DNA of 64,000 nucleotides from Nitrospirota bacterium (GCA_015492645.1 WGER01000029.1:3621-67620); one strand, 5' to 3'. Counted from the stretch's first letter, positions 41,970-57,652 are shown. The notes: generated by a model from the sequence alone, not told the origin. A program made the numbers and translations.

Positions 41970-42932
41970 CTAAGAGGCAGTCTCTTCTTCCTGATCCTTC
42001 CAGAATGCCTCCTCTCTCAAGAGTGCCTCCCACTCCCTGTCCACATATTCCTGAATCTGTTGAAGGATGTGCTCATTGTCGGGTGAGAAGAGGTGTCTGA
42101 ACCTGCCCTGTGTCTTCAGGAACTCCACAACGGGCCTCTTTTCCTTCGGTTTGTAGTTTATTGTGAGTCTGCCATTTTCATATTCGTACAGTGGCCAGAA
42201 GCAGGTCTCTACCGCCAGTTTCGTATCCTGTATCGTCGTGTTGGTGCCGGTCCTCCAGCCGCGGTTACAGTGGGCAAGGATATTAATAAAGGCGGGTCCA
42301 TCCACATCCAGGGCCTTACGGACCTTGGTCATCAGGTCACGCCAGTGAGCAGGAGTAGTCTGGGCTACATAGGGGATCCCATGGGCAGCCATTATCTTTG
42401 TGAGATTCTTTCTGGGTTGCAATTTGCCAGGGATCACCTTCCCAGCAGGTGAGGTGGTGGTATTAGCACCCAGCGGTGTGGCGCTCGAACGCTGAATACC
42501 CGTGTTCATATAGGCACCGTTGTCATAGCAGATATAGACTATATCATGACCCCTTTCCATCGCACCTGACAGGCTCTGGAAACCGATATCATAGGTCCCG
42601 CCATCACCGCCAAAGGCTATAAACTTTATCTTCCTGTCAATTTTGCCCTTCTTCCTGAGTGCCCTGTACATCGTCTCCACCCCTGATATGGTGGCTGCAG
42701 CATTCTCAAAGGCGGTATGGATCCAGGGTATCCTCCAGGCGGTATAGGGATATATGGTTGTGGAGACCTCAAGGCAGCCAGTTGCATTGGCAGCCACAAC
42801 AGGCACCTCTGCTGCAAGAAGCACCTGCCTGACGGCAATCGGTGCCCCACAGCCCGAGCAGAGTCTGTGACCTCCTGTGAGGAGTTCCTCCTTTTTCGAG
42901 AGTTCCTTTAATCTTAAAGGGGTTGTGCTCAT
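41970..42932 (-). CDS. porB: Pyruvate:ferredoxin oxidoreductase beta subunit
   Basis: GHRLCSGCG, ATGCLEV, FENAAA, GGDGGTYDIG, YDNGAYMNTGIQRS. Confidence 0.92.
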   Translation of the reverse strand: MSTTPLRLKELSKKEELLTGGHRLCSGCGAPIAVRQVLLAAEVPVVAANATGCLEVSTTIYPYTAWRIPWIHTAFENAAATISGVETMYRALRKKGKIDRKIKFIAFGGDGGTYDIGFQSLSGAMERGHDIVYICYDNGAYMNTGIQRSSATPLGANTTTSPAGKVIPGKLQPRKNLTKIMAAHGIPYVAQTTPAHWRDLMTKVRKALDVDGPAFINILAHCNRGWRTGTNTTIQDTKLAVETCFWPLYEYENGRLTINYKPKEKRPVVEFLKTQGRFRHLFSPDNEHILQQIQEYVDREWEALLREEAFWKDQEEETAS

Positions 42933-42952
42933 CTCTCCTCTCCTTATCTGAT

Positions 42953-44131: not shown

Positions 44132-44418
44132 CACTTGCCCTCCTCTACCATCACTATCGCCTTCTGCCCCTTCTTGCCCGGGCACTCATTGGCACAGATT
44201 CCACATCCCTTACAGTGTAGATAGTCAAAGTCCTCCCGCTTGCCATCCTTCACATTAACAGCCCCATCCGGACAGTAAATCCAGCAGAACAGACACTGTA
44301 TGCAGTTCTCAGGCTTCCAGACAGGCCTGAAGGCCCGCCATGAGCCTGTATTGTACTGCACTGCATTACCTGCATCCGGTATAACACCGCCCATCGGTAT
44401 ATCTCTCCATCCCTTCAT
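44131..44418 (-). CDS. porD: Pyruvate:ferredoxin oxidoreductase delta subunit, 2x[4Fe-4S]
   Basis: TGSWR..RP, CIQCLFCWIYCPD, CKGCGICANECP. Confidence 0.92.
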   Translation of the reverse strand: MKGWRDIPMGGVIPDAGNAVQYNTGSWRAFRPVWKPENCIQCLFCWIYCPDGAVNVKDGKREDFDYLHCKGCGICANECPGKKGQKAIVMVEEGK

Positions 44419-44990
44419 CCCTCTTTCACCTCCTCATAACCCCTTCTTGTTGCCTCAAGATTGGCAACTATCACCTTCTCTGAGAACTTACTCCCGAAAC
44501 TCGCCTTCACGTCCTCAAGAAGTGTATCAAGGTCAACAATACCTGATGCCCTGGCAAGGGCACCGAGCATAGTGGAATTCGGAAGTGGCCTTCCTATAGT
44601 GTCAATGGCAATCTTTGTGGCATCAACGGTAAATACCTTCTGAGTTGGTTTCAGATTCAGTTTCTGTCTCAACTCCTCAGGACTGTGAGAGGTATTCACC
44701 ACAAAGATGGCATCATCAGGAGCACCCTCGGTAACATCAATGCTCTCTATCAGGGTCGCATCCACTACCACCACTATGTTCGGCCTCGTTACCGGGGCAT
44801 GGATCCTCAATTCCCTGTCACTGATTCGGTTATAAGCCCTCACAGGGGCGCCTGCCCTTTCAGGTCCGTATTCAGGAAAGGCCTGGACATTCTTGCCCTT
44901 GCTAAGACACGCATCTGCAAGGACCTTTGCTGCCGTTACTGTCCCCTGACCTCCTCTGCCATGCCATCTGATCTCGATGGTTTCTCCCAT
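44415..44990 (-). CDS. porC: Pyruvate:ferredoxin oxidoreductase gamma subunit
   Basis: EIRWHGRGGQG, FPEYGPERAGAPV, NSTMLGA; SD GGAGGAG before ATG 44990. Confidence 0.92.
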   Translation of the reverse strand: MGETIEIRWHGRGGQGTVTAAKVLADACLSKGKNVQAFPEYGPERAGAPVRAYNRISDRELRIHAPVTRPNIVVVVDATLIESIDVTEGAPDDAIFVVNTSHSPEELRQKLNLKPTQKVFTVDATKIAIDTIGRPLPNSTMLGALARASGIVDLDTLLEDVKASFGSKFSEKVIVANLEATRRGYEEVKEG

Positions 44991-45014: not shown

Positions 45015-45044
45015 ATTGTAGAGGATTGAGCCTTTATAATGCAA
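45015..45044 (-). promoter_or_regulatory. Putative sigma70 promoter of porCDAB
   Basis: Minus strand TTGCAT, 18 nt spacer, TACAAT. Confidence 0.5.
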
Positions 45045-45050
45045 GTTAAG

Positions 45051-45089
45051 CACAGGGGGCTGAAGGCCCTTCAGGCCTTCAGCCCTGTG
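45051..45089 (-). terminator. Strong hairpin over the stop codon of the NuoG-like gene
   Basis: GGGCTGAAGGCC-CTTCA-GGCCTTCAGCCC, 12-bp perfect stem; no clear U-tract. Confidence 0.45.
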
Positions 45090-47071
45090 ACCTCCACCTG
45101 CCTCAGCCAGAGTAGCCTTGAGCCCTCTATCACAGAGTTGTTCAGGGCAGGGATGAGTTCTGATGGGTTGTACTGGAGGTCATCCCTCTTTCTTATCTCT
45201 GCTGGGGTGAGTGTTGGCTTGAATGCCTTGAGTTGTTTTTTAACATCAGCAGTCTTCGCCACCTTCAGTTCCTTCTCCATCACCTTTGAAAGCCCCCTCA
45301 GGGTCTCTCTCACTGTCCTTGACTCCCCGTAGGGATCCACCGCCTGCTCAACGGTCTTAAGATGTCCCATATAGTCCACGATACTACCAGACATCTCGTA
45401 CACAGTTGTGGTCGGCAGAACAAGGTCAGCCTCCATCGCAAGCGAACTCATATGTGTGTTCTGAACAACCAGAAAATCAACATCTTCAGGCCTCTTTATA
45501 GGCACCTCTCCCAGACAGTACATGACCCTTGTTGCACCACCTACAAGTTCCCTGTATCTATAACCACTACCGACGAAACCCATAAGGAGTGTCCCCTTCG
45601 CATTCGCCTCAACCGGCACAGAAAGCACCCCGCCCTTAAGGATACCGAAGGCCTTTGTAGACTCAAAGAATAAAGGAGTAGTGATGACCAAAGGGGAGTC
45701 TGCATCAACAAACATCTGGGCAGCCTTTTCGGCATCCTCGGTAACAGGGACATCCGGCAGGCTGACAGACTCGGGCTGTCTGAGACCCTTCTTTGATAGT
45801 GCCCGCAGCAGACTGCTGATCCCGGAGACCTCCTCTCCCTCCAGAACAACATGGGCAACATCCCCAAGAGTAGTTCCGCCTATCACCACCAGTTTCGCAC
45901 CCCTTGCCACCTTCTTTCTTATCGAGGCATCAAGGGCTGCCAGTACCCGATCCCACTGGGATGCAGACAGGCCGACAACCACCAGCAGGTCAGACTCCTG
46001 TATATCATAGGATGGACCGAGCAGTGAATCGGCATCTGCGTACAGGCTCACCGTGGAGTCATAACTGTTTATACCTGTGGACTCCGCAAAGGCCCTGAGC
46101 GTCAGGAGATCCTCATTCAGGAGGTTGCCTGTGGTGATGATTCCCACCTCTGCCGGATTTCTCATCGCCTCAGCCATACTCTCAAGCGCCTCCTGCCAAC
46201 TCACGGGCCTCAATTCCCCGTCAATCCTCTTGAGGGGCTCTGTTATCCTCTTATCAGAGTTTATAAAATCAAAACCGAACCTTCCATAGGCACAGATATA
46301 ATGGTCAACCCTCTCCTCAGGTGTGCCTATATTCACCTTTGCCACATCCCTGCCGTGTACACTCACCACCGTGCTACAACCACAGCCACAACCGAGACAC
46401 ACTGATCCGAACCTCCGGTACTCCCACTCCCTTCCCTTCCGCCATCTGTCAGCCTCAAGGAGGGCATTCACTGGACAGGCATCCACACAACTGCCACAGA
46501 AGGTACAGCCAGCCTCGTGCAGGGGTCTATCCTCTGCAGTCACCACCCTGGAACCCACTCCTCGGCCATAGAAGTCAAGCACAGAGGTCCCCTGTTCCTT
46601 ACAGACCCTCACACACCTCCCACAGAGTATGCAGTAGTCAGGGTCACGCTTTATAAAGGGGTTTTTGTCGTCCACAGGAAAACCAAACTTTTTACGGGTG
46701 AATGAACTCTCCTTCACCTCGTATTCATAGGCATACCTCTGAAGGTCACATACTCCCGCCTTCGTACAGGTCATGCAGTCAAGCGGATGCATGGAGACTA
46801 TCAGGTCCACCACAAACCGTCTCAACTCCCTTATCTTCTCACTGTCAGTGACCACATCAAGGTCCTCCTTCACACGGGTGTTACAGGCGATGGTCATCCT
46901 TCCACCAATCTCAACCATGCACATCCTGCAGGCACCTATCCCCTTCATCCCCTTGATATAGCAGAAATTGGGTATATGTATCCCCACAGACTCCGCAGCG
47001 TCAATCAGATTTACCCCTTCAGGAAGCCTGTATTCCTTACCGTCTATCCTCACCCTCACCTTCTTAGCCAT
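45071..47071 (-). CDS. NuoG/FdhA-like Fe-S protein with a molybdopterin-fold C-terminus lacking the catalytic Cys/Sec
   Basis: [2Fe-2S] (FC...GACRMC...AC), HPLDCMTC...C, CILCGRCVRVC, CTFCGSCVDACP, CLGCGCGC...C; the DxCxRxC/U segment of formate dehydrogenases is replaced by DSTVSLY. Confidence 0.85.
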   Translation of the reverse strand: MAKKVRVRIDGKEYRLPEGVNLIDAAESVGIHIPNFCYIKGMKGIGACRMCMVEIGGRMTIACNTRVKEDLDVVTDSEKIRELRRFVVDLIVSMHPLDCMTCTKAGVCDLQRYAYEYEVKESSFTRKKFGFPVDDKNPFIKRDPDYCILCGRCVRVCKEQGTSVLDFYGRGVGSRVVTAEDRPLHEAGCTFCGSCVDACPVNALLEADRWRKGREWEYRRFGSVCLGCGCGCSTVVSVHGRDVAKVNIGTPEERVDHYICAYGRFGFDFINSDKRITEPLKRIDGELRPVSWQEALESMAEAMRNPAEVGIITTGNLLNEDLLTLRAFAESTGINSYDSTVSLYADADSLLGPSYDIQESDLLVVVGLSASQWDRVLAALDASIRKKVARGAKLVVIGGTTLGDVAHVVLEGEEVSGISSLLRALSKKGLRQPESVSLPDVPVTEDAEKAAQMFVDADSPLVITTPLFFESTKAFGILKGGVLSVPVEANAKGTLLMGFVGSGYRYRELVGGATRVMYCLGEVPIKRPEDVDFLVVQNTHMSSLAMEADLVLPTTTVYEMSGSIVDYMGHLKTVEQAVDPYGESRTVRETLRGLSKVMEKELKVAKTADVKKQLKAFKPTLTPAEIRKRDDLQYNPSELIPALNNSVIEGSRLLWLRQVEVTGLKA

Positions 47072-47096
47072 TGAGTCCTCCTTTAAAGATTTTATT

Positions 47097-47696
47097 TCAG
47101 ACCCCCACCTGCTGGGGCTCTTGCTCTGCGACATCCACTATCTCTATCGCCCCATACTGGCAGACCTTTATACACTCACCACACCTGCTGCACCTCTTAT
47201 CCACTATCTCAAAGGGGAGATACCCCGTTCTATAGGGTGCCTTCTTCTCACCCACAATCGCAAAGTCCTTGCAGACCTCAAGACAGTCTCCACACATGGT
47301 GCATTTTTCAGGAATCACCCTGTATCTGATGAGCGCCTTACAGACCCTTTCAGGACACCTACCGGTGGCATGGGCGACATAGACATCCTCCTGCTCCTTT
47401 AGACTCTTCTCTATGTACTCAGCCACATCCTTTCCCCTCTTACACATAGAGGAGATGAACATCTTGGGAACAATCTCTCTTATCGCATCTATGTCCTCCC
47501 TGCCACCACGCCCCTCAATCAGGTTCCTCACCCTTATCCTCATCTCGTAACTACCCATCGGACAGGGCAGACACCTGCCACACATCGGCCCATCAATAAA
47601 CTCATCTAACAGACGTATCACCCTGTGAAGGAGACACCTTTCAGACTCGATCTCCTTAAAAATATCCTTCAGGGTCTTGGCCTTCTCATCACTCAT
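47097..47696 (-). CDS. Stand-alone HydB/NuoF C-terminal Fe-S module
   Basis: CGRCLPC...SMC, H...RC....C, CTMCGDCLEVC, CSRCGECIKVC; SD GGAGG before ATG 47696. Confidence 0.8.
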   Translation of the reverse strand: MSDEKAKTLKDIFKEIESERCLLHRVIRLLDEFIDGPMCGRCLPCPMGSYEMRIRVRNLIEGRGGREDIDAIREIVPKMFISSMCKRGKDVAEYIEKSLKEQEDVYVAHATGRCPERVCKALIRYRVIPEKCTMCGDCLEVCKDFAIVGEKKAPYRTGYLPFEIVDKRCSRCGECIKVCQYGAIEIVDVAEQEPQQVGV

Positions 47697-47707
47697 AGAT
47701 CCTCCTT

Positions 47708-49603
47708 TCAGACCTTCTCTGTAACTTCTTTTTTCCTCGGTACCTTCTCTATCTTTACAGCACCTATCGGACATGCCAGATAACAGGCCTTACACTTCAC
47801 ACAGACTGACTGGTCAATGTAGAATTTATCCCTCAGTTCCTTCACAGCCCCATATGCACATGCCTGCTTGCAGAGCCCGCAGAGGAAACACTCGGTATGT
47901 TCTATCCTGAAAAGTCCCAGCCCCTTACAGACCTTTGCCCTGCAGTACTTGTCGTAGATGTGTTCCTCGTATTCCTCTCTGAAGTACCTCAGGGTACTCA
48001 ACACGGGGTTGGGTGCACTCTGACCCAGACCGCACAGGGAGGCCGCCTTCACCCTATGGGCGAGTTTCTCAAGTCTCTCAAGGTCTTCAGGTTCGCCCTC
48101 ACCACAGACAATCCTGTCCATTATCTGGAGCATCTGGTAGGTACCTATCCTGCAGGGGGGGCACTTACCACAGGACTCTGCCTGGGTAAAACTCAAGAAG
48201 TATCTTGCCACATCCACCATACAGGTATCCTCATCCATCACCACCATCCCGCCTGAACCCATCATGGAGCCGAGTTCCCATAGAGAGTCAAAATCCACAG
48301 GGGTGTCCAGGTGCTCCTCAGGGATGCACCCCCCGGAGGGACCACCTGTCTGGACCGCCTTGAACTTCTTATCACCAATAATGCCGCCGCCTATATCGAA
48401 GATTATCTCCCTCAGGGTGGTACCCATCGGGACCTCCACCAGACCGGTGTTTTTCACCTTTCCTGTAAGAGCGAAGACCTTGGTCCCCGGTGAGTTGGGT
48501 GTGCCGATGCACCTGAACCAGTCTGCTCCCTTCTCTATTATCACGGGCACGCAGGCAAAGGTCTCCACATTGTTCAGGTTTGCCGGGTAGCCCCAGGGAC
48601 CACCCCCGGGCTCCGAGACCCTCGGTGGCCTCGCCCTCGGGAATCCCCTCTCACCCATTATGGAGGCAACCAGTGCCGTCGCCTCACCACAGACAAAGGC
48701 ACCTGCACCCTCACGAATATCGAGGAAGAAGTCAAAACCTGTGCCGAGGATATTCTCTCCCAGAAGCCCCAGGTCCTCTGCCTGCTGGATCGCTATCCTG
48801 AGGTTCTTCACCGCTAAGGGATACTCATGCCTCACATAGATGAAGCCATACCTCGCCCCAATCGCATATGCACAGAGGAGCATCCCCTCTATAAGGCTGT
48901 GGGGATCACCCTCCATGATTGACCTGTCCATGAACGCACCTGGATCACCCTCATCCCCGTTGGCTATTACCATCTTGATGTCACCAGGGGCGTGCTTCGT
49001 ATGCCTCCACTTTCTGCCTGCTGGAAAGCCTGCACCACCACGGCCGCGGAGATTAGCCCTGTCCACCTCATCAAGCACCTCGTCAGGGCTCATGCTACTA
49101 AGGGCCTTCTCAAGGGCCTTATACCCGCCAACTGCTATGTAGTGGTAGATGTTGCGGGGGTCTATTCTCCCGTTGTTCCGGAGGGCTACCCTCACCTGTT
49201 TCTTGTAAAAAGGCAACTCGTCCATCAGTTCATAGGGCTCTGAATAGAGGCTCTCCCTCTCCATCAGGTGTCTGACAGGATATCCCCCGGTGAGGGTCCC
49301 TGACACGATAGCCTCAGCGTCATCACTCCTGACCTTCCTGTAGAAGTAGCCGAAGGGTTCCACCTTCATCACCGGCCCCTTCTGACAGAGACCCTGGCAG
49401 CCCGTCCTCACAATCTGGACATCCAGACCCCTCTCTTTCGCCTTCTGTTCAATGGCCTCAATCACCTTCAGTGAGCCCGATGCCATACAGGCGGTCCCGG
49501 TGCAGGCTCTTATTATCTCCTTGTCTCTGGGGAAGGTCTCCTCCTGCAGAAGGAGCCTCAGGTTTCTCAGTTCCTCTATACTCTTAAGCCTTCCCATCAC
49601 CAT
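47708..49603 (-). CDS. HydB/NuoF-like FMN and NAD(H)-binding subunit
   Basis: N-terminal CTGTAC...GCQGLC, LRGRGGAGFP, GDEGDPGAFMDRS, GAFVCGE, GGPSGG, SCGKCPPC...LCGLG, two C-terminal CxxCxxCxxxC motifs. Confidence 0.92.
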   Translation of the reverse strand: MVMGRLKSIEELRNLRLLLQEETFPRDKEIIRACTGTACMASGSLKVIEAIEQKAKERGLDVQIVRTGCQGLCQKGPVMKVEPFGYFYRKVRSDDAEAIVSGTLTGGYPVRHLMERESLYSEPYELMDELPFYKKQVRVALRNNGRIDPRNIYHYIAVGGYKALEKALSSMSPDEVLDEVDRANLRGRGGAGFPAGRKWRHTKHAPGDIKMVIANGDEGDPGAFMDRSIMEGDPHSLIEGMLLCAYAIGARYGFIYVRHEYPLAVKNLRIAIQQAEDLGLLGENILGTGFDFFLDIREGAGAFVCGEATALVASIMGERGFPRARPPRVSEPGGGPWGYPANLNNVETFACVPVIIEKGADWFRCIGTPNSPGTKVFALTGKVKNTGLVEVPMGTTLREIIFDIGGGIIGDKKFKAVQTGGPSGGCIPEEHLDTPVDFDSLWELGSMMGSGGMVVMDEDTCMVDVARYFLSFTQAESCGKCPPCRIGTYQMLQIMDRIVCGEGEPEDLERLEKLAHRVKAASLCGLGQSAPNPVLSTLRYFREEYEEHIYDKYCRAKVCKGLGLFRIEHTECFLCGLCKQACAYGAVKELRDKFYIDQSVCVKCKACYLACPIGAVKIEKVPRKKEVTEKV

Positions 49604-50090
49604 TACTCCTTTCTATCGCCTCTATCACATCATCCACCTTCTTTGGAGTCAACTCACCAACCACCTCCTCATTTATGGTCACGACAGGGGCGAGCCCACA
49701 ACAGCCGACACATCCGACCGTCTCAAGTGTCATGGTGAGGTCAGGGGTGGTCTCACCCACATCTATCTTGAAGTGTTCCTGGAGCCTCTCGAGCACCTTT
49801 GGGGCCCCTCTCACATGACAGGCGGTCCCCATACAGACACGGACTATCTTCCTGCCCCTTGGTGTGAAGTGGAACTGATGGTAGAAACTGGCAACTGAGT
49901 ATATCTCTGCAAGGGGCAGTCCCAGTTTCCTTGACAGGTTCTGCAGGACCTCCGGTGGCAGATACCCATGCTCCTCCTGGATCCTGTGGAGGGTTGTTAT
50001 AAGAACACCCCTCTTCTTCTCATATTCAGACAGGATCTCACCCACCCTGCCAATCTCTCTTTCTACATCAAGACCCTCTACCACATCCAT
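49584..50090 (-). CDS. HydC/NuoE-like [2Fe-2S] subunit
   Basis: LHRIQEEHGYLP, VASFY, VCMGTACHVRG, GCVGCCGLAP. Confidence 0.93.
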   Translation of the reverse strand: MDVVEGLDVEREIGRVGEILSEYEKKRGVLITTLHRIQEEHGYLPPEVLQNLSRKLGLPLAEIYSVASFYHQFHFTPRGRKIVRVCMGTACHVRGAPKVLERLQEHFKIDVGETTPDLTMTLETVGCVGCCGLAPVVTINEEVVGELTPKKVDDVIEAIERSNGDGKA

Positions 50091-50102
50091 ATCTTACCTC
50101 CT

Positions 50103-52091
50103 CTACTTCAGACCCTCATGGGGTCTTGAGAGTTTCTCCAGTTTACGCCTGTCCTCCATACTCATCAGTTTGCGCTCCACACCGAACCTGCCCGGCTCGT
50201 ACTTCCTCAGTTTCAGGGCCTCGCGCTTCTTGTCTATATGTTCAAGGGCCTTCCTCAACATCACCTCTGGATCGGGTATAAATTCCAGTTTTCCACCAAC
50301 CCTCTGCTCCCATACCTCTGTCATTATCCTTTTCACCTCTGAACTCGCCTCCACCGGACTCTCCGAACCGAATATCACATACATGCCCGAGGCGACAAAG
50401 TATGTGCCTATCGCAAGGGCCTTCTCACTCATCCACTCAGGTGCAAGCCCTACTGCCGGCAGGTCTGAGATATCATCCCCGAGTCCACCTTCGTGTACCA
50501 TATGGGTCGCTATGGTGAGAATCCTTGAGTTGTCCACACATGCACCCAAGTGCAGAATGGGAGGACAGCCTATCGCCTCACAGACCTCCCTGAGCCCGGG
50601 ACCTGCCATCTCAAGGGCCACCTCGGGTCTCATGTAACCTGCCTTTGCACAGGCATGGGCACCGCAGCCTGTGGTCACCACAAGGACATCATTCTTGATG
50701 AACTCAATCGCAAGGTAATCATGATAACTGTCCTGCATTATCCTCGGGTTGTTACAACCAACTATGCCTGCCACACCTCTGATTCTTCCCGCCATTATCG
50801 CGTCATTAAGGGGTCTGAAGGAGGCCCTGAAACGGCCTCCCTGCATGTAGTCTATGTACTCATGAGAGAAGCCAGCAATAAGGGGGGATGTCTCATGAAC
50901 CCTGCTGCCTGAGGCGGTCCTGTTGGCATAGTTATCTATCGCGAGTCTCAGTATCTGCCTGGCGACCTCCTTTGCCCTCCGTTCATCATACTGGATATGC
51001 ACCGCATCCTTTATCTTCCCTTTGTAGGAGGTGGTTATCACCTTCGTATGGAACTTCTTTGAGGCCTCAACTATTGCGGGCATTATACACTGAACATCCA
51101 CCATCACTGCCTCTGCAAGTCCCGTCATGATCGCCAGTTCCTGGTTCAGAAAACCACCGGCAGTGGGGATACCATGCCTCATCAGGACCTCATTGGCAGT
51201 GCAGCACATACCGACCAGGTTTATCCCCTTCGCACCCTTCTGTCTTGCATACTCCAGTATCTCCGGCTCCTGGGATACCTCCACTATCATCTCAGCAAGA
51301 GTGGGCTCATGACCATGGACAACCACATTCACCTCGTCCTCTTTCATTATCCCGATGCTCGCCTGCGCCCTCACGGGTCTAGGTGTCCCGAAGAGGATGT
51401 CGGTGATATCGGTACTGAACATACATCCACCCCATCCATCGGCAAGGGAGACCTTGAGTGCTGCCATCATCAGGTTTTCAGGGTCCTGGTCCACACCCAT
51501 ATTCGTCCTGTGCAGGGCCTCTGCCACCTCCCTGTCTATTCCTCTCGGCACTATACCCCACTTTCTCCAGACCTCCTGACGCTTCTTCGGTGCCCTCTTC
51601 ACAAAGGCGATCTCACCCTTCTGCTGTCCGAACTGTTCAATGATCTTCAAAGCCACATCCTTTGCGACCTCCTCCTTCGTCCTACCCTCTGTGGGTATCT
51701 CCAGGATATCGGCCAGTTTCTTCAGTTTCTGGGTGTCCCTCACCTTGAAGTCAGGGGCCTCGCCGGTGGCCGCCTCAAGGAGTGTAAAGGCCATATCCCT
51801 TGCATGGTCACTGTGGGCAGCAGTACCCGCAGCCACCATCCTGAGGAAGTTCCTGGCAGACACAACGGGCAGTGTGGCCCCACATACACCCCTCGCTGTC
51901 TCCTCTGCATCAGGGCCAACAAGCCTGCATGGGCCCATAAAACAGATCTTACAGCATGCACCGCTGTGTCCGATAGGGCAGGGCTTCAGTTTCTCTGCCC
52001 TATCAAAGGCGGTCTCCAGTCCCTGGGCCTCAGCCCATTCTATAATCTCTTCTGCCACCTTATCTGCACTCTTTGGTGTCCTTGGTGCCAT
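50103..52091 (-). CDS. cooS: Anaerobic Ni-Fe carbon monoxide dehydrogenase catalytic subunit (CooS/AcsA)
   Basis: D/B cluster CPIGHSGACCKICFMGPC...VCG; C-cluster ligands HGHEP, MCCT, DVQC, GCNN, TGCG, ACVDNSR; SEKA. Confidence 0.96.
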   Translation of the reverse strand: MAPRTPKSADKVAEEIIEWAEAQGLETAFDRAEKLKPCPIGHSGACCKICFMGPCRLVGPDAEETARGVCGATLPVVSARNFLRMVAAGTAAHSDHARDMAFTLLEAATGEAPDFKVRDTQKLKKLADILEIPTEGRTKEEVAKDVALKIIEQFGQQKGEIAFVKRAPKKRQEVWRKWGIVPRGIDREVAEALHRTNMGVDQDPENLMMAALKVSLADGWGGCMFSTDITDILFGTPRPVRAQASIGIMKEDEVNVVVHGHEPTLAEMIVEVSQEPEILEYARQKGAKGINLVGMCCTANEVLMRHGIPTAGGFLNQELAIMTGLAEAVMVDVQCIMPAIVEASKKFHTKVITTSYKGKIKDAVHIQYDERRAKEVARQILRLAIDNYANRTASGSRVHETSPLIAGFSHEYIDYMQGGRFRASFRPLNDAIMAGRIRGVAGIVGCNNPRIMQDSYHDYLAIEFIKNDVLVVTTGCGAHACAKAGYMRPEVALEMAGPGLREVCEAIGCPPILHLGACVDNSRILTIATHMVHEGGLGDDISDLPAVGLAPEWMSEKALAIGTYFVASGMYVIFGSESPVEASSEVKRIMTEVWEQRVGGKLEFIPDPEVMLRKALEHIDKKREALKLRKYEPGRFGVERKLMSMEDRRKLEKLSRPHEGLK

Positions 52092-52134
52092 CTTATTTAC
52101 CTCCTTCGGTCATTATCTCAGGCACTGCCCGAGA

Positions 52135-54348
52135 CTATATAATCGGCTCCATCTCCAGGGCAGGATGTCCCACCTTCTGGAGCCATTCAAGCAGTTTCTC
52201 CGAATCCTCACATATCGTCTCATCGGCAATCTTGTCCAACAGATCAGGCACTCCTTCCTCAGCGGCCCTCTGCTGGAACTTCTCCTTCACCCTCTCCTTC
52301 AGGGCCTTGGTCATCCAGACTATCCTTTTAATACCACCGTCACCTGCAAGGAACTTCCTGCTCGTGATGAAGTTCACCCCTATCCCCATGAACCCGGGGG
52401 TCTGCACCCCTCCACCCACAGTGCCTGCCAGGGTGGAAAACTTCATCCCTATGGGGGTCATCCCTGTATGCCCCCTCTGTACAATCATCACCCCGTTTGC
52501 CTCAGGTATTATCGCCACAATACACTCAAAACAGCCGCAGGAGGTCATCGGGTTCTCCATTATTGTGTAGAGATTAAGGGTCTCAACCGCTCCTCCTGAT
52601 GCCTTCTTCAGGTATTCATCCACACCTGAGTATCTCCCATATCTCGGATCAATCAACTCACCCTTCGGTATGGGCTCATTCCCACCCGTTGGATCAATCT
52701 CGTAGGATGCCTTACAGTCGAGCCAGTTGTAGGCACCACAGAGACCAAGCCTTTCAGGGGTAATCACACACACATGGGTGGGAGCAAAACTCTGACACAG
52801 AAGGCAACTGTAAAAGGTGTCCACACTGTCATCTGTCAGGGCTGCAAGCCTCTCGTCCCTCGCCTTCCACTCCTTTCTCGCCTCCTCACGCCACTTTATC
52901 ACATCCTCCTCGTCGGTAAACAGTGTCACCTGGACCTTGTCCACAATCGCAGAGAACCTCTTGTGGGTCATCGCATGGTGTATCTTTCCAATATCCTCAA
53001 GGCTGAAGCCAGCCTGCTTTGCTGCGTGGCTTATACGTATCCAGTTTATATCCCTCTGGCCCATATGCCAGATACCCTGACCTTCGTTTATATTGTGGTG
53101 TAGCCTCCTTTCTATGATGGGCAGGAAGTCAGATTGTAGCCTCCTGCCGGCGACCTCCACCAGGATTCCCAGGGGCATCACTCCACCCTGCTCATACCGT
53201 TCCTTCCAGTTATTACCGACGATGTTTATCTTCCCGTCCTCTATCTCATCCATCTCTCTCATCCTCACCCACTCAAAGGCAGGTGAACGGGTTCCACCAA
53301 ATTCAATAAAGGTCTCCTCCTTCCTGATCCTCTCTCCCTCGAAGGCCGGTCCATAGGATATAGGGATCGGGGGTTTCTCCACGATCACCTTCAGTCCCCT
53401 CACCTCAATCGCCCTCTGGACGATCCTATCGTGGTCGAGTTCCTTGTCCACCTCTTCATAGGTGCACACACCTGTCGGATGGATTACAGGTACATCGGTG
53501 TCACAGATCGCAGGGAATCCCATGTTTATAGCCCCCGCTCCTGTGGCCCACTTTATGTCGTCCAGTTCACCCAGGACAAGGGCAAAGGCAAAGACACGGT
53601 CCTTCGTATACTTCAGGTTGGCCCTGTAATCACCAGGTTTATGTCCACCGAAAATGAGGGCCGCCCTGATCGCCCAGTCAAGGGCATAGAGGGTATGCTC
53701 GGTGGTGGTACCAAGAGGCACCACATACACATCCCAGCCCAGTTCAATCCCCTTACTCAGCAGTTGCCTGGTAACACTCGTCACCCTGCCCGTTTTGTCA
53801 GGGGCCTGCCCTGAGAGAAACACCAGTATGTTCTTCTCCTGCAGTTCCCTGACGATCTTTACTGCCGTGTCTTCATCAGGGGCGGCCCCGATGATTGCTG
53901 CAAACCCGGGCATCCTGCCGTCCACCAACTGGATACCCAGATTTCTCTGGATGGTATCAGTAATAAATCCGTTGTACTCGTAACCTGTTTCAGGGTCCCT
54001 GTCAGGCTCAAGCCCCTCAATGTACCTCAGGGCCAGGTATATCTCCTCACACCAGAGTGTGGCCATCCCTGAGTCTAGGGCCTCACCCAGATATGGCCTC
54101 CATAGATGCTCCTCAGGCTCCTCATGCAGCAGTTCTCTGGCCATCATGAGGGCCTCTTTCATATCCTTCAGTGTCTTCACCTCAAACCCGGTCATAGCAT
54201 AAATCATCGGCAGATAGAAGGCAGTATCGGGAAACTCGAACCGGTGGTCCTCACCTTTTTCTGCAATCACCTTCTGTAGGAGTTCCTCTGTCTGACGATA
54301 GACTTTATGGGCCCCCCTGATAGCAGCCGAGGCTATTATCTTCGACAT
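52135..54348 (-). CDS. acsB: Acetyl-CoA synthase catalytic subunit
   Basis: FPDTAFYLP, A-cluster CLLCQSFAPTHVC...GLCG, TSCGCFEC, GGGVQTPGF. Confidence 0.96.
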   Translation of the reverse strand: MSKIIASAAIRGAHKVYRQTEELLQKVIAEKGEDHRFEFPDTAFYLPMIYAMTGFEVKTLKDMKEALMMARELLHEEPEEHLWRPYLGEALDSGMATLWCEEIYLALRYIEGLEPDRDPETGYEYNGFITDTIQRNLGIQLVDGRMPGFAAIIGAAPDEDTAVKIVRELQEKNILVFLSGQAPDKTGRVTSVTRQLLSKGIELGWDVYVVPLGTTTEHTLYALDWAIRAALIFGGHKPGDYRANLKYTKDRVFAFALVLGELDDIKWATGAGAINMGFPAICDTDVPVIHPTGVCTYEEVDKELDHDRIVQRAIEVRGLKVIVEKPPIPISYGPAFEGERIRKEETFIEFGGTRSPAFEWVRMREMDEIEDGKINIVGNNWKERYEQGGVMPLGILVEVAGRRLQSDFLPIIERRLHHNINEGQGIWHMGQRDINWIRISHAAKQAGFSLEDIGKIHHAMTHKRFSAIVDKVQVTLFTDEEDVIKWREEARKEWKARDERLAALTDDSVDTFYSCLLCQSFAPTHVCVITPERLGLCGAYNWLDCKASYEIDPTGGNEPIPKGELIDPRYGRYSGVDEYLKKASGGAVETLNLYTIMENPMTSCGCFECIVAIIPEANGVMIVQRGHTGMTPIGMKFSTLAGTVGGGVQTPGFMGIGVNFITSRKFLAGDGGIKRIVWMTKALKERVKEKFQQRAAEEGVPDLLDKIADETICEDSEKLLEWLQKVGHPALEMEPII

Positions 54349-54387
54349 CCTGACCTCCTCGCTCCAGATTTTGTTTTCATCTCAACT

Positions 54388-54415
54388 TAAAAGAGCACCG
54401 GGTGGCCGATGCCCT
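54388..54415 (-). terminator. Intrinsic-terminator-like hairpin between acsC and acsB
   Basis: Minus strand AGGGCATCGG-CCAC-CCGGTGCTCT followed by TTT. Confidence 0.45.
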
Positions 54416-54473
54416 TAATAAAATTTTTAAACATTTAACTTTCTAAAGTCAATCTGTTTTTATCCAGACCCCT

Positions 54474-55820
54474 CTATGCTGCAACCTTCTGTCTGAGAAA
54501 GGAAGGCAACCCGTTCGCCTCCCTCGGGCCAACAGTCACTGTCCAGCCCTCCAGTTTCTCCTCAATCGCACCCTTCAGTATTGCAACATACCCGGGTATT
54601 ATCAGTTCCCTGTGTTTTATCTGGCTCTCTATCCCGCTTTCTTTGATGAAGTTGGCGATCTTTGCACCAGTAAATTTCCCTGCAGCCCAGGCGGTCAGCA
54701 CGCTCAGTCCCTCACAGTCCATAACAGCAAGCCAGGCCGGGACCTTGGAATTCTCAACCTCTCCAGAAACTATGAAGTAAGTGAGAGAGAAGTTTGTCGT
54801 GATGAGAAGCGGTGAATTCTCATCTGGCTCCCCGATCTTGTATATCTTCTGCTCCACCTGCATCGGCACCTGTGGATCAGTATAGATATTCTGTCTCAGG
54901 GTAAACAGGGCAAGGTTCTTCCACTTCTCTGCAGAGGACATCACCACCACAGAGGCGTACTTACATATCCCGAGGCCTGCAAGGAGTGTCTCATACAGTG
55001 GGTCTTCCCTCTGCACAAAGTTTATCACAGGATAACCGAGTGGCTTGAAGTTCTTCTTTATGGCTGCCCTCCTGATGAGGGTATTATGTTCCAGTATCTC
55101 AGGTGCCTTTCTCGCCCCTGAGTCTACCACAATATCCTCAACCCCTAAGGATTTCACCTTCTCTGTTAGTGCACTGAGGGCCTCCAGGTCGTCTGCCCTC
55201 ACACCCACAGAGGCCTTCGCCTCCTTCGCGATCGGGACCATCTGCTCAGCATTCGCCTCTGTTACCCCATATAGCAGTGCCCCCTTGCCTGAGAATAACC
55301 CCATGACCGTCTTTGCTGCATCTGGGCTCTCAGTAGATACAATCACAGGCACCTCCGGTGCCTTCTCAGCCACTGTCTTTGCAAGTGTCTCAAACCTTTC
55401 CACCTCACCAGAGGCGTTGGTGATACAGATCGCATCCACCCTCAGCAACTGCCCAACTCTGTTTATCTCAGAGGTGAGCACCGCCTGGACCTTTTCCATC
55501 TGTACAGCCTCATCCTCTGTATCCTTTATCTCAAGGGCCAGAACGGTCGGGTTTACGAATTTCTTTTCATGCCTGAACAGGACCGTCTCTTCTCCCATCT
55601 TCACGGCCTTATCCCCCGTACCCAGTGTGATAGGCCTCACTGGAGGGGCAGCAGCCTCACCCAGGATCCTCTTTGCCTCTTCTGAGACATCTGGACACTT
55701 GTCCAGTGATGTCTGACGCTGGGCGAGTTTCATTGCGAAGGCAAGGCAGGTAGGGAACCCGCATTTTTTACAGTTAGTCTTTGGAAGGAGTTTAAATATC
55801 TCAACACCTGTTAACGCCAT
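54474..55820 (-). CDS. acsC: Corrinoid Fe-S protein large subunit
   Basis: LPKTNCKKCGFPTCLAFA...CP, ETVLFRHEK, LRQNIYTDPQ, TTNFSLTY, SVLTAWAAGKF, GPREA. Confidence 0.96.
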   Translation of the reverse strand: MALTGVEIFKLLPKTNCKKCGFPTCLAFAMKLAQRQTSLDKCPDVSEEAKRILGEAAAPPVRPITLGTGDKAVKMGEETVLFRHEKKFVNPTVLALEIKDTEDEAVQMEKVQAVLTSEINRVGQLLRVDAICITNASGEVERFETLAKTVAEKAPEVPVIVSTESPDAAKTVMGLFSGKGALLYGVTEANAEQMVPIAKEAKASVGVRADDLEALSALTEKVKSLGVEDIVVDSGARKAPEILEHNTLIRRAAIKKNFKPLGYPVINFVQREDPLYETLLAGLGICKYASVVVMSSAEKWKNLALFTLRQNIYTDPQVPMQVEQKIYKIGEPDENSPLLITTNFSLTYFIVSGEVENSKVPAWLAVMDCEGLSVLTAWAAGKFTGAKIANFIKESGIESQIKHRELIIPGYVAILKGAIEEKLEGWTVTVGPREANGLPSFLRQKVAA

Positions 55821-55841
55821 CTCAAACCTCCAGGTCTTAGT

Positions 55842-56783
55842 TTAAGCGAACATCTCATCAATAAAGGTATTTACAAGGCTCACCGCATCGGGATGTCTCA
55901 TTATCAGCAGTTCTGCACCGGCGAGCATCAGTGTGGTTGCAGTAAGCGCCTCCCAGAGTATTCCCCTCTCCCTGAGACTGCCCCATTCTGGCAGATCCTG
56001 TTCTGAGGCCTGAGTTTCCTTTATCTTCCAGACATACATACCCACATCAGCCACCATTGGAGGCTGCATCACGGGATCTGCCTGTGCCAGTGCTGCAAGC
56101 CTGATCCTCTCCATCACCGAGTATGTATACTCAATCCCGTAACCAAGGGCAGAGCACATGGGGTCTGTAATCAGTCTCTCCTTCTCAAAGCCCATCTGGG
56201 TGATCAGGATATTCAACTGCTTGGAGAGGTTTATATCAAGTTCACTCATGGCGATCAGTTTGTGACCCGAGGCCATGGCTGCGGCTGCGATTGTCTTGTA
56301 ATTCGCCTCCTGTGCCTTACCTATCACACAATTACGGCCCTTTGATGCCTCTGCCACCTTTGGAAGGACCTCGGCATCTTTCTCAATATGGTTACTGCCA
56401 AGAATGATCAGTGGCACCTTTACGGCATTGAGGACATCCGTTACTACCTTCACTGCATCCTCTGCTGAGAGGTTCTTCTGATCAGGATGGGTACCGATGA
56501 GCCTCAGTGTGATGGACTTTGCCCCGAGGCTCTCCTGACAGAACTGGGCCCACTTTACAGGGTCATCGGAGACATCACTGTACGGCTCCCTCACCACCTC
56601 AGGCCAGTCCTGAGGGGGTACATCCTGTATCTCATAAGATATGAGGGGCCTGTGAGGTATCTCTCCTTCAAACCTGTGGAAGGGTAGGGTGTTTTCGCCT
56701 CCAAAGGTCTCCTGGACCTCCGTACCAATGGTTACTGGATAGACCCTTCCTCTAAAACTCTCTTTTGGCGGCGTAAAGGCCAT
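55842..56783 (-). CDS. acsD: Corrinoid Fe-S protein small subunit
   Basis: GGENTLPF, DPVKWA, DINLSKQLN, ALGYGIEY, MERIRLAAL, IMRHP. Confidence 0.94.
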   Translation of the reverse strand: MAFTPPKESFRGRVYPVTIGTEVQETFGGENTLPFHRFEGEIPHRPLISYEIQDVPPQDWPEVVREPYSDVSDDPVKWAQFCQESLGAKSITLRLIGTHPDQKNLSAEDAVKVVTDVLNAVKVPLIILGSNHIEKDAEVLPKVAEASKGRNCVIGKAQEANYKTIAAAAMASGHKLIAMSELDINLSKQLNILITQMGFEKERLITDPMCSALGYGIEYTYSVMERIRLAALAQADPVMQPPMVADVGMYVWKIKETQASEQDLPEWGSLRERGILWEALTATTLMLAGAELLIMRHPDAVSLVNTFIDEMFA

Positions 56784-56794
56784 CTCAACCTCCC

Positions 56795-57652
56795 TTACAT
56801 CTCAAGATAGGAATGGGCATAAAGGGTATTACCAAGTATAACATCAATCGTCTTCTTCATTACGGTCATCTTCTCTTTGTCCTCTATCTCCTCTCCATTG
56901 AGGACCTTATCAAAAAGGGGCTTTTCCTCCATCGCCTCCTTTATCTCTGCGGGGTCTGCAATGGCAGCATCGAGTCCGGCATTTAACAACATGAGGAAAT
57001 AGTACTTATTGAGTATCGGTCTTACATGTTTTGGGCAGCCATTTGAGACATTGCTGAGGCCCACCACGGTCTTCATCGGAGGGTCATTCAATTGCTTGAA
57101 GACCTCTATCGCCTTAATCACCTTAAGGGCCTGGTCCTGCGTCGTTGCTATCTGGAGCACCAAGGGATCAAGATAGACATTCTCCAGAGGAACACCGTAT
57201 TCCATAGCCCTTGCCATTATCTCTGCTGCAATGGCCGCCCTGTCATGCTCATCAGCAGGGAGCCCACCCTTACCAACAGTAAGGGCTATAATATCACAGT
57301 TGTACTTGGCTGCAAGTTCCAGCATCGGAAACCTCTCAGGATCGTTGGAGGTGGAGTTTATCATGGGTCTGCCATAGTCATTGTTATGGACCTTCAGTCC
57401 GGCCTCCACAGCATTATAATTTGTGGTATCAAGACATACTGGCAGTGGAACCGCCTCCTGTATTGTGGTCACCATCCACTGCATCAACTCCTCTCCACCA
57501 TCCTCTGCAGGTCCGATATTTGCATCAATCATGCCAGCACCGTTTTCGTACTGAATCCTGGCAATCTCCTGAATTGGCGCCTTGTCCCTCTTCATCATTG
57601 CCTCTCTGACCCTCTTTGCGATAATACTCAACTTCTCACCTATTATCAGCAT
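56795..57652 (-). CDS. acsE: Methyl-THF:corrinoid protein methyltransferase (pterin-binding TIM barrel)
   Basis: IIGEKL, IDAN.G, CLDTTN, INS, LDPLVL, GLSNVSNG, GLDAAIAD; first gene of the acs cluster. Confidence 0.9.
   Translation of the reverse strand: MLIIGEKLSIIAKRVREAMMKRDKAPIQEIARIQYENGAGMIDANIGPAEDGGEELMQWMVTTIQEAVPLPVCLDTTNYNAVEAGLKVHNNDYGRPMINSTSNDPERFPMLELAAKYNCDIIALTVGKGGLPADEHDRAAIAAEIMARAMEYGVPLENVYLDPLVLQIATTQDQALKVIKAIEVFKQLNDPPMKTVVGLSNVSNGCPKHVRPILNKYYFLMLLNAGLDAAIADPAEIKEAMEEKPLFDKVLNGEEIEDKEKMTVMKKTIDVILGNTLYAHSYLEM

What the first reader, a model, noticed from the sequence alone, without database searches (positions are those of the whole stretch)
45071..57652. CODH/ACS cluster continuous with a HydBC-like module whose third subunit has no catalytic site: candidate electron-bifurcating CO dehydrogenase
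Seen: acsE-acsD-acsC-acsB-cooS is followed after 12 nt by a HydC/NuoE-like gene, then an overlapping HydB-like gene, an extra Fe-S gene and a NuoG-like gene, all on one strand. The HydB-like protein has the N-terminal [2Fe-2S] domain, two C-terminal [4Fe-4S] motifs and the DEGDPGAFM and GGPSG signatures. The NuoG-like protein has a full Fe-S wire but neither an H-cluster nor the Mo/W-ligating Cys/Sec. Known: HydABC-type complexes bifurcate electrons between NAD(H) and ferredoxin using a hydrogenase or formate dehydrogenase head, and those signatures have been linked to bifurcating enzymes. Inference: the missing head could be CODH itself, giving a complex that couples CO/CO2, NAD(H) and ferredoxin for the Wood-Ljungdahl pathway. 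I am not aware of a biochemical characterisation of this arrangement.
Basis: partly seen in the sequence, partly recalled or inferred. Interest (0 to 1): 0.75.

Follow-up and report, generated by a model that had tools for sequence, protein, structure and literature searches.

The report
CO dehydrogenase wired to NADH/ferredoxin module
In this sulfur-cycle bacterium the carbon-fixing CO dehydrogenase gene is followed by four genes for a flavin and iron-sulfur module of the electron-splitting type that has no catalytic site of its own, so the enzyme is probably tied to both NADH and ferredoxin, an idea already in print but never tested.

Summary
acsE-acsD-acsC-acsB-cooS is followed on the minus strand by a NuoE-like (BfuC), a HydB-like (BfuB), an extra Fe-S gene and a NuoG-like gene (BfuA) that lacks the Mo/W ligand.

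That raised a rival, the Por-Bfu enzyme predicted in print. Synteny rejects it: POR follows the module in 1 of 45 related Nitrospirota loci, whereas a CooS gene precedes it in 47 of 49.

In a second class of the phylum cooS has left the acs operon and sits directly after bfuC-bfuB-FeS-bfuA. This was seen in 42 of 47 genomes; the other 5 break at contig ends. The module therefore follows CooS, not ACS or POR.

BfuB carries every sequence mark of bifurcating HydB. The genome's own complex I NuoF carries none.

The idea is not new. Schut et al. 2022 predicted "Codh-Bfu", which a 2025 paper says is still unpurified, and this scan has noted similar clusters elsewhere. This version differs in three ways: no CooF, a BfuA with all five clusters and a dead pterin domain, and a stand-alone copy of the BfuB tail.

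Binding and bifurcation remain untested.

The parts
56795..57652 (-). acsE, methyl-tetrahydrofolate:corrinoid methyltransferase; first gene of the string
   Evidence: Pfam Pterin_bind 5.2e-18
55842..56783 (-). acsD, small subunit of the corrinoid iron-sulfur protein
   Evidence: Pfam CdhD 1.7e-42
54474..55820 (-). acsC, large subunit of the corrinoid iron-sulfur protein
   Evidence: Pfam CdhD 1.5e-94 plus FeS 2.8e-14
52135..54348 (-). acsB, acetyl-CoA synthase
   Evidence: Pfam CODH_A_N, CdhC and ACS_CODH_B_C (5.7e-124)
50103..52091 (-). cooS, Ni-CO dehydrogenase with D-, B- and C-cluster ligands intact
   Evidence: Pfam Prismane 1.1e-163. Best PDB match 6t7j_B 5.9e-191, with 9fzy_B CODH/ACS beta 5.6e-179. 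C38, C46, C47, C50, C55, C70, H261, C296/297, C335, C446, C476 and C518 are invariant in 41 sequences.
49584..50090 (-). bfuC (HydC/NuoE-like, [2Fe-2S] C1); begins 12 nt after the cooS stop
   Evidence: Pfam 2Fe-2S_thioredx 9.7e-52
47708..49603 (-). bfuB (HydB-like): N-terminal [2Fe-2S]-type domain, FMN/NAD(H) site, [4Fe-4S] B1, C-terminal 2x[4Fe-4S] B3/B4; overlaps bfuC by 20 nt
   Evidence: Pfam. Best PDB matches are bifurcating enzymes over nearly full length: 7t2r_B 4.9e-221 (query 31-616) and 8a6t_B 7.6e-219 (query 4-616); the non-bifurcating 6vw7_B scores 5e-115. Carries DEGDPGAFM, GAGAFVCGE and GGPSGG.
47097..47696 (-). Extra Fe-S subunit, a stand-alone paralogue of the BfuB C-terminal part: B1-like [4Fe-4S], a Cys/His site, and 2x[4Fe-4S]. 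The longest ORF would start at 47774.
   Evidence: Pfam NADH_4Fe-4S plus Fer4. Matches 9n5u_B residues 435-599 at 2.4e-27. Invariant C21, C39, C42, C45, C85, H109, C114, C119 and two CxxCxxCxxxC motifs in 54 sequences.
45071..47071 (-). bfuA (NuoG/FdhA-like): ligands for one [2Fe-2S] and four [4Fe-4S], a pterin-type domain without Mo/W ligand and without the capping domain. The longest ORF would start at 47134.
   Evidence: Pfam. All 20 cluster ligands invariant in 15 sequences. Tyr stands at the Sec/Cys position.
45035..45090 (-). Strong stem-loop across the bfuA stop codon, without a U-run; a possible partial terminator or processing site before porG
   Evidence: strand folding on 44985-45095: -41.3 kcal/mol, z -2.81. 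The terminator scan did not list it.
41970..44990 (-). porG-porD-porA-porB, four-subunit pyruvate:ferredoxin oxidoreductase. It is a neighbour and probably not part of the module.
   Evidence: Pfam POR, Fer4, POR_N/PFOR_II and TPP_enzyme_C. Found downstream of bfuA in only 1 of 45 related loci.

Best explanation
The four genes after cooS encode a HydABC-type (Bfu family) NAD(H)/ferredoxin flavin and iron-sulfur module that has no catalytic head of its own. Its head is the CO dehydrogenase CooS. Proposed path (inferred): electrons leave the CooS C-cluster through the B and D clusters. They enter the cluster chain of BfuA, either directly or through the extra Fe-S subunit, which is a copy of the BfuB tail and takes the place that CooF holds in the predicted firmicute enzyme. 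They reach the BfuB FMN / B1 / BfuC C1 site, where they are divided between NAD+ (at FMN) and ferredoxin (at the BfuB C-terminal clusters); the path runs in reverse for CO2 reduction. [quoted passage not shown] My thermodynamic inference is this: at the very low CO levels inside CODH/ACS the CO2/CO couple lies near the mean of the NAD and ferredoxin potentials, so such coupling would let the step run reversibly. Shown here: gene content, cofactor-binding motifs, bifurcating-type sequence marks, and conserved and rearranged linkage to cooS. Inferred: physical complex, electron path, and obligate coupling of NAD and ferredoxin.
For: (1) Linkage: among the 80 best of 354 relatives of BfuA in one-genome-per-species contigs, 49 loci hold at least 6 kb upstream. 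Of these, 45 have acsB-cooS directly before bfuC-bfuB-FeS-bfuA, 2 have a CooS paralogue cluster, and 2 have no CooS nearby. BfuA identity falls to 49% while the order holds. The downstream neighbour is not conserved. (2) Rearrangement test: in family f25, a different class of the phylum, the order is bfuC-bfuB-FeS-bfuA-cooS on a contig other than acsEDCB (L094, L095, L096). In 42 of 47 f25 genomes with the Fe-S gene, CooS lies within 5 kb on the same contig; the other 5 are cut by contig ends. AcsB lies on another contig in all 15 genomes where I compared coordinates. (3) Genus g10 keeps AcsB (14 of 14). The Fe-S gene is found in 1 of 14, and CooS in 0 of the 3 single-contig genomes searched (L097). 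(4) BfuB: nearly full-length best matches to structurally solved bifurcating enzymes. All three residue criteria of Losey et al. 2020 are met (section 17 read), while the genome's complex I NuoF shows the non-bifurcating pattern. The B3/B4 clusters, called essential in PMC11829005 (passages read), are present. (5) No other head: no Fe_hyd_lg_C in the genome. The Sec-FdhA has its own BfuBC. The two NiFe hydrogenases are an Mvh type and a cytochrome-b type, each with its own partners. (6) CooS-linked BfuBs form one clade (SH-aLRT 100) apart from the Fdh-linked ones (quick tree).
Against: No binding, activity or transcript data exist; no RNA holder was listed. All the synteny lies within one phylum and one BfuB clade. 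It therefore reflects one origin plus a few events (class-wide retention, one rearrangement, one duplication), not many independent associations. Two of 49 loci have the module away from acsEDCB-cooS (L073, L075). Families f22 and f23 have CooS and AcsB without the Fe-S gene, so CODH/ACS does not need the module. The loss of cooS and the module in g10 could be a single deletion of adjacent genes. CO is a stronger reductant than either acceptor, so bifurcation is not required thermodynamically under standard conditions, a point Schut et al. themselves raise. Sequence marks of 'bifurcating' beta subunits were derived from hydrogenases only.
Confidence: 0.55

Rival explanations
1. A non-bifurcating CO:NAD+ (or NADH:CO2) oxidoreductase. 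CooS passes electrons through BfuA to the BfuB flavin and NAD(H) only. The extra clusters are wires or stores, and ferredoxin is not an obligate co-substrate.
For: CO (-520 mV; table in PMC9304861) can reduce NAD+ directly. Non-bifurcating HydABC look-alikes exist (PMC7311640). An earlier scan note describes a CooS-NuoEFG cluster that lacks the ferredoxin-binding part (unchecked).
Against: BfuB has the A/M, F and GGPSG pattern, the N-terminal domain and the B3/B4 clusters that non-bifurcating enzymes lack.
Confidence: 0.15
2. A free-standing Bfu-type module that does not bind CooS. It is co-expressed with the pathway and exchanges electrons through soluble ferredoxin, or serves a third partner that has not been recognised.
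For: Two of 49 loci carry the module away from cooS. In many relatives BfuB has a C-terminal CBS pair, which suggests independent regulation. The genome has a second Bfu module whose FdhA-like subunit also lacks Cys/Sec (L090).
Against: A Bfu core without a third redox site would be an uphill NADH:ferredoxin reductase. Also, cooS moved together with the module when it left the acs operon in f25.
Confidence: 0.15
3. Por-Bfu: the module belongs to the four-subunit pyruvate:ferredoxin oxidoreductase that follows it, as predicted for Dehalococcoides and syntrophs by Schut et al. 2022.
For: porGDAB lie 80 nt downstream on the same strand. Por-Bfu is in print.
Against: POR follows bfuA in 1 of 45 related loci with at least 4 kb downstream, and that one is the closest relative. 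A strong hairpin separates bfuA from porG. Published Por-Bfu has a short BfuA with A1, A2 and A4 only, whereas this BfuA has all five sets of ligands.
Confidence: 0.03
4. The head is a formate dehydrogenase or hydrogenase encoded elsewhere in the genome.
For: The best PDB match of BfuB is the NiFe-HydABCSL subunit. The genome has two NiFe hydrogenases and a Sec-FdhA.
Against: FdhA is fused to its own BfuA part and sits beside its own BfuBC. The hydrogenases are Mvh-type with an MvhD polyferredoxin and group-1-type with cytochrome b. There is no [FeFe] hydrogenase domain in the genome. None of these is linked to the module in any locus examined.
Confidence: 0.05

Closest known systems
Codh-Bfu / 'CodhABCSF' (predicted only): Schut et al. 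2022, PMC9304861; Li et al. 2025, PMC12318220
   Same: A BfuBC core of the bifurcating type is encoded with a Ni-CO dehydrogenase. The proposed reaction is CO/CO2 coupled to NAD(H) and ferredoxin. Neither has been purified (passages read).
   Different: The published type has a monofunctional CooS plus CooF and a short Type 2 BfuA lacking A3 and A5; 4 sequences are counted, all in Firmicutes. Here CooS is the CODH/ACS subunit and there is no CooF. BfuA carries all five cluster sites plus a dead pterin domain. A stand-alone BfuB-tail paralogue is added. The host is Nitrospirota. The paper's supplementary tables could not be opened, so I cannot say whether such clusters are listed there under another label.
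NiFe-HydABCSL of Acetomicrobium mobile (PDB 7t2r), a Type 3 Bfu
   Same: It is the best structural relative of BfuB (4.9e-221) and a good one of the BfuA N-terminal part (1.8e-50). In both, BfuA keeps the A3 cluster and the catalytic site lies on separate subunits.
   Different: The head there is a NiFe hydrogenase (S and L subunits). Here it is proposed to be CooS, with an extra Fe-S subunit.
Nfn-Bfu / Stn transhydrogenase (PDB 9bov, 8oh5, 9n5u)
   Same: The A subunit also ends in a pterin-type domain and gives the best PDB match to residues 97-574 of BfuA. The BC core is the same.
   Different: NfnA carries an FAD/NADPH domain. BfuA here has no such domain (Pfam).
Hyl-type bifurcating formate dehydrogenase of Gottschalkia acidurici (HylABC-FdhF2)
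   Same: The HydA-like subunit has lost its catalytic cluster and serves as a wire to a separate catalytic subunit (PMC6085437; PMC9304861).
   Different: There the dead domain is an H-cluster domain and the head is FdhF2. Here the dead domain is a pterin domain and the proposed head is CooS.
Respiratory complex I N-module (NuoEFG)
   Same: Same fold families. NuoG also has Tyr at the former Mo-ligand position.
   Different: The genome has a separate full nuo operon with its own NuoEFG (L088). That NuoF lacks the N- and C-terminal cluster domains and the bifurcating-type residues.

Membership tests
Bfu (HydABC-type) electron-bifurcating family | BfuB with a NuoF-type FMN/NAD(H) domain, an SLBB domain and the B1 [4Fe-4S] | tested here: met
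   Pfam Complex1_51K 3.8e-41, SLBB 1e-06, NADH_4Fe-4S 1.4e-34
Bfu (HydABC-type) electron-bifurcating family | BfuB C-terminal domain with two [4Fe-4S] (B3/B4), absent from non-bifurcating homologues | tested here: met
   Two CxxCxxCxxxC motifs. The alignment to 7t2r_B runs to residue 616 of 631. The criterion is from PMC11829005.
Bfu (HydABC-type) electron-bifurcating family | BfuB N-terminal thioredoxin-like domain (B5 site) | tested here: met
   Pfam 2Fe-2S_thioredx on residues 25-101, 2.5e-08. Four Cys are present.
Bfu (HydABC-type) electron-bifurcating family | BfuC with the C1 [2Fe-2S] | tested here: met
   Pfam 2Fe-2S_thioredx 9.7e-52, full length
Bfu (HydABC-type) electron-bifurcating family | Residue pattern of bifurcating beta subunits (Losey et al. 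2020): A/E and M in the NADH site, F near FMN, GGPSG | tested here: met
   DEGDPGAFM, GAGAFVCGE and GGPSGG are present. The control, the genome's own complex I NuoF, has DEGEPGTFK, GAGAYICGE and no GGPSG. The criteria were read.
Bfu (HydABC-type) electron-bifurcating family | Mutually dependent reduction of NAD+ and ferredoxin by a third substrate | not testable with these tools
   Needs an enzyme assay
Codh-Bfu as published (Type 2, CodhABCSF) | CooS encoded in the same cluster as BfuABC | tested here: met
   12-nt gap between cooS and bfuC. Conserved in 47 of 49 loci.
Codh-Bfu as published (Type 2, CodhABCSF) | A CooF (WorS-like polyferredoxin) subunit between CooS and BfuA | tested here: not met
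   No CooF-type gene is in the string. The extra Fe-S protein is a BfuB-tail paralogue with a NADH_4Fe-4S domain.
Codh-Bfu as published (Type 2, CodhABCSF) | A short BfuA lacking clusters A3 and A5 | tested here: not met
   20 invariant ligands for five clusters, plus a 400-residue pterin-type domain
Molybdo/tungsto-pterin formate dehydrogenase (FdhA/FdsA) | Sec or Cys metal ligand followed by His; a C-terminal Molydop_binding domain | tested here: not met
   Tyr-Ala stand at that position, against U-H in the genome's own FdhA. No PF01568 match.
Por-Bfu | POR genes conserved next to BfuABC | tested here: not met
   1 of 45 loci
Nfn-Bfu / Stn | An FAD/NADPH-binding domain in the A subunit | tested here: not met
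   No Pyr_redox or Fer4_20 match in BfuA
Ni-CODH (CooS/AcsA) | Ligands of the D, B and C clusters | tested here: met
   Invariant C38, C46, C47, C50, C55, C70, H261, C296/297, C335, C446, C476 and C518. My mapping of these residues to clusters rests on recalled CODH-II numbering.

The most novel reading that the evidence does not exclude
In Thermodesulfovibrionia and a sister class, CODH/ACS works as a supercomplex with a Bfu module, so the CO2/CO step of the acetyl-CoA pathway is driven, or drained, by NADH and ferredoxin together. This would halve the low-potential ferredoxin needed per CO2 fixed, or allow acetyl-CoA oxidation at vanishing CO levels. The stand-alone copy of the BfuB tail would be a new kind of adaptor that plugs the CODH D-cluster into a BfuA whose dead pterin domain serves as the docking platform.
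Probability: 0.35. Interest if true: 0.8.

Novelty: new variant of a known kind. Interest (0 to 1): 0.58.

Why it matters
How low-potential electrons reach the CO2-to-CO step is a central cost item of the Wood-Ljungdahl pathway. Outside the model acetogens it is usually assumed to be plain ferredoxin. A CODH tied to a bifurcating NADH/ferredoxin module would change energy budgets for a widespread group of subsurface and hydrothermal sulfur-cycling bacteria. It would also give the still hypothetical 'bifurcating CO dehydrogenase' a second, architecturally different candidate for purification. The f25 arrangement, where cooS is encoded with the module and apart from acs, is a clean natural experiment pointing to CooS as the partner. 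It offers a five-gene unit of about 7.3 kb (L094 7211-14555) for heterologous expression.

Tried and rejected
(1) Complex prediction of CooS (alignment A2) with the extra Fe-S protein (A3): no verdict, score 0.00 against a mark of 0.32. This is not evidence either way. CooS could only be sent as a monomer because of the size limit, although the D-cluster lies at the dimer interface (recalled).

(2) Expression: no RNA holder was listed for window 44200-52200. The four DNA holders all come from one hydrothermal-vent study, one of which may be the source.

(4) A conserved C-terminal extension of CooS of about 35 residues, beyond all solved CODHs, was considered as a docking peptide for the module. 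I rejected this because it is also present in the f23 CooS; no Fe-S gene was found in the 12 f23 genomes searched, and that f23 locus has no Bfu genes beside cooS.

(5) Por-Bfu was rejected on synteny.

(6) Looking beyond the phylum failed. The 80 loci kept from genome contigs are nearly all labelled Nitrospirota: one is labelled Deferribacteres and a few carry no phylum label. A protein search with the f25 Fe-S protein returned only Nitrospirae or Nitrospiraceae labels among the few named hits. The Atlas look-up lists look-alike stand-alone clusters in Bacillota and other phyla, but without context.

(7) The promoter and terminator scan found nothing above shuffled expectation.

(8) Literature: five full-text searches, and passages of PMC6305446, PMC5736913, PMC10203281, PMC6344411, PMC7325909, PMC12835891 and PMC9326234, gave no description of this Nitrospirota arrangement. 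PMC6305446 notes nuoEF near CODH/ACS in another phylum, without interpretation.

Full report
**What is there.**

The minus strand of window 57652-45071 carries nine genes with short gaps or overlaps:
- acsE, acsD, acsC, acsB and cooS.
- A NuoE/HydC-like gene (BfuC in the current nomenclature), 12 nt after cooS.
- A HydB-like gene (BfuB), overlapping bfuC by 20 nt.
- A roughly 200-residue Fe-S protein.
- A 666-residue NuoG/FdhA-like protein (BfuA).

Homologue alignments favour the internal starts 47696 and 47071 for the last two.

These encode a four-subunit pyruvate:ferredoxin oxidoreductase (porGDAB, 44990-41970). An 80-nt spacer separates them from bfuA, and it holds a 17-bp stem-loop over the bfuA stop codon (-41.3 kcal/mol, z -2.8).

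**The proteins.**

- **CooS** keeps the invariant Cys and His residues expected for the D, B and C clusters. It matches solved Ni-CODHs and CODH/ACS beta subunits at E-values down to 1e-191.
- **BfuB** aligns over nearly its full length to the beta subunits of structurally solved bifurcating enzymes. The matches are 7t2r_B (4.9e-221), 8a6t_B, 7q4v_B, 9bov_B, 8oh5_B, 9n5u_B and 7p5h_B. Non-bifurcating FdsB and NuoF chains match only the core, at 5e-115 or weaker.
- **BfuB cluster domains.** It has the N-terminal thioredoxin-like domain, the B1 cluster and the two C-terminal [4Fe-4S] motifs. PMC11829005 describes these additions as missing from non-bifurcating homologues and the last two as essential (passages read).
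- **BfuB residue criteria.** It meets the three criteria of Losey et al. 2020 (section 17 read): DEGDPGAFM, GAGAFVCGE and GGPSGG. As an internal control, the NuoF of the genome's own complex I operon shows DEGEPGTFK, GAGAYICGE and no GGPSG.
- **BfuA** has invariant ligands for one [2Fe-2S] and four [4Fe-4S] clusters. Its pterin-type domain has no Molydop_binding cap.
- **The BfuA metal-ligand position.** The genome's own formate dehydrogenase reads ARY-U-HS there (a TGA read as Sec). BfuA reads SL-Y-AD, as do its relatives. Complex I NuoG also has Tyr at this position.
- **The extra Fe-S protein** is a stand-alone paralogue of the C-terminal third of BfuB. It matches residues 435-599 of 9n5u_B at 2.4e-27. 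It has invariant ligands for a B1-like cluster, a Cys3His site and two [4Fe-4S] clusters in 54 sequences.

**Which enzyme does the headless module serve?**

Schut et al. 2022 (PMC9304861; passages read) predict both a Codh-Bfu and a Por-Bfu. The window has CooS on one side of the module and POR on the other, so comparative genomics has to decide.

1. **Synteny in close relatives.** A scan of one genome per species with a BfuA alignment found 354 relatives, of which the 80 best were kept. Nearly all are labelled Nitrospirota or Thermodesulfovibrionia.
   - I mapped the window's proteins onto these loci by tblastn.
   - Of the 49 loci with at least 6 kb upstream of bfuA, 45 show acsB-cooS-bfuC-bfuB-FeS-bfuA, 2 show a paralogous cluster headed by a CooS paralogue, and 2 show neither.
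   - Of the 45 loci with at least 4 kb downstream, only one has POR, and it is the closest relative. Por-Bfu is therefore rejected.
2. **A second class of the phylum.** In family f25 (AcsB about 63% identical) the gene order is bfuC-bfuB-FeS-bfuA-cooS. The acsEDCB genes lie on a different contig and are followed there by a formate-dehydrogenase-type Bfu instead (L094-L096).
   - In 42 of 47 f25 genomes with the Fe-S gene, CooS lies within 5 kb on the same contig. The remaining 5 are cut by contig ends.
   - So when cooS and acsB were separated, the module stayed with cooS.
3. **Genus g10** keeps AcsB in 14 of 14 genomes. The Fe-S gene is found in 1 of 14, and CooS in none of the three single-contig genomes searched. 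Its acs operon ends at acsB.
4. **A duplicated pair.** A CooS paralogue sits directly before a BfuB paralogue in the window's own genome (contig C25). In two other genomes it is followed by a full second set of bfuC, FeS and bfuA.
5. **No other candidate head in this genome.**
   - There is no [FeFe]-hydrogenase domain.
   - The Sec-FdhA is fused to its own BfuA part, next to its own BfuBC and the formate-THF ligase.
   - The NiFe hydrogenases are an Mvh type and a cytochrome-b type.

**Limits of this evidence.**

- All of it lies within one phylum.
- A quick maximum-likelihood tree puts all CooS-linked BfuBs in one clade (SH-aLRT 100), apart from the Fdh-linked ones (the careful search did not finish). 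The data therefore reflect one origin followed by class-wide retention, one rearrangement and one duplication. They are not many independent associations.
- Two loci carry the module away from cooS.
- Families f22 and f23 have CODH/ACS without the Fe-S gene.
- The g10 loss may be a single deletion.
- No transcript data could be found.
- The one complex prediction allowed gave no verdict.
- Binding, electron path and bifurcation are inferred.

**Mechanism proposed.**

CooS is the third-substrate head of a Bfu enzyme. Electrons from the C-cluster pass through the B and D clusters into the BfuA chain. They may pass through the BfuB-tail paralogue, which stands where CooF stands in the predicted firmicute enzyme. 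They then reach the FMN/B1/C1 site and are divided between NAD+ and ferredoxin, or run the reverse way for CO2 reduction.

My thermodynamic argument is inference. At the low CO activity inside CODH/ACS the CO2/CO couple rises from -520 mV towards the mean of the NAD and ferredoxin couples. That is the situation in which bifurcating hydrogenases operate. Schut et al. make the same point for low CO.

**Comparison with what is known.**

The idea is in print but untested. [quoted passage not shown] A full-text search for Codh-Bfu and related phrases found 8 papers, none with biochemistry.

The published type has a monofunctional CooS with CooF and a short Type 2 BfuA, in Firmicutes. The present type differs in four ways:
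- CooS is the CODH/ACS subunit.
- There is no CooF.
- BfuA is Type 3-like, with five clusters and a dead pterin domain. This recalls HylA, which lost its H-cluster, and the pterin-like end of NfnA, which gives the best PDB match to residues 97-574 of BfuA.
- A new subunit is added.

I could not open the supplementary tables of PMC9304861, so such clusters may be listed there among the unassigned clades.

Earlier notes of this same scan describe Bfu modules in or beside CODH/ACS operons of other genomes and phyla. One describes the same four-gene string, and one describes the BfuB-tail subunit. These are unchecked AI notes. I confirmed only the nature of the tail subunit and the cooS-adjacent string within Nitrospirota.

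**Verdict.**

This is a new architectural variant of a predicted but uncharacterised enzyme type, with good comparative evidence that CooS is its partner.

Noticed in passing
G000 contig C25 (L091 7988-14128, minus strand): A second CooS-family gene (613 aa, 40% identical to the window's CooS) lies directly before a BfuB paralogue (723 aa, bifurcating-type motifs). LarC-like (Ni_insertion), PP-loop and LarB-like (AIRC) genes precede it. This CooS paralogue, and its counterpart in L063, lack the six residues GMCCTA that hold a C-cluster cysteine, so it may not be a normal CO dehydrogenase.
   Followed up: partly
G000 contig C84 (L090 8-5105): Another BfuC, small ORF, BfuB and FdhA-like (817 aa, with Molydop_binding) string. 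Its FdhA-like subunit has Gly at the Sec/Cys position, so this would be a second module without a working pterin site. The contig is only 7.4 kb.
   Followed up: partly
G000 contig C20 (L089 8108-15317): BfuC-BfuB-FdhA with an in-frame TGA at residue 347 (ARY-U-HS), followed by a cNMP-binding protein and formate-THF ligase. This looks like a selenocysteine-type Fdh-Bfu for the methyl branch.
   Followed up: partly
whole genome G000: No match to the methylene-THF reductase family PF02219 in a genome rated 100% complete, although CODH/ACS and formate-THF ligase are present (FolD not searched). It is not evident which enzyme reduces methylene-THF.
   Followed up: no
related loci, e.g. L073 7027-9366, L013, L023: In many relatives BfuB is about 780 aa long and ends in a pair of CBS domains. 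The window's BfuB (631 aa) lacks them. This suggests nucleotide-sensing regulation of the module in those lineages.
   Followed up: no
L096 (G098 contig C1, acs operon of family f25): Where cooS has left the acs operon, acsB is followed instead by bfuC-bfuB and a split FdhA-like gene. Bfu modules thus sit beside both branches of the pathway, in different combinations in different classes.
   Followed up: partly
window 40866-41951, minus strand: A Roadblock/LC7 protein and a small Arf/Ras-like GTPase (an MglB/MglA-like pair) follow porB. They are conserved at 89-94% identity in the closest relative, L007.
   Followed up: no
window 57958-61591, plus strand: Divergent from acsE lie three radical-SAM genes. 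Two have CofH/MqnC C-terminal regions and are probably for futalosine-route menaquinone synthesis.
   Followed up: no
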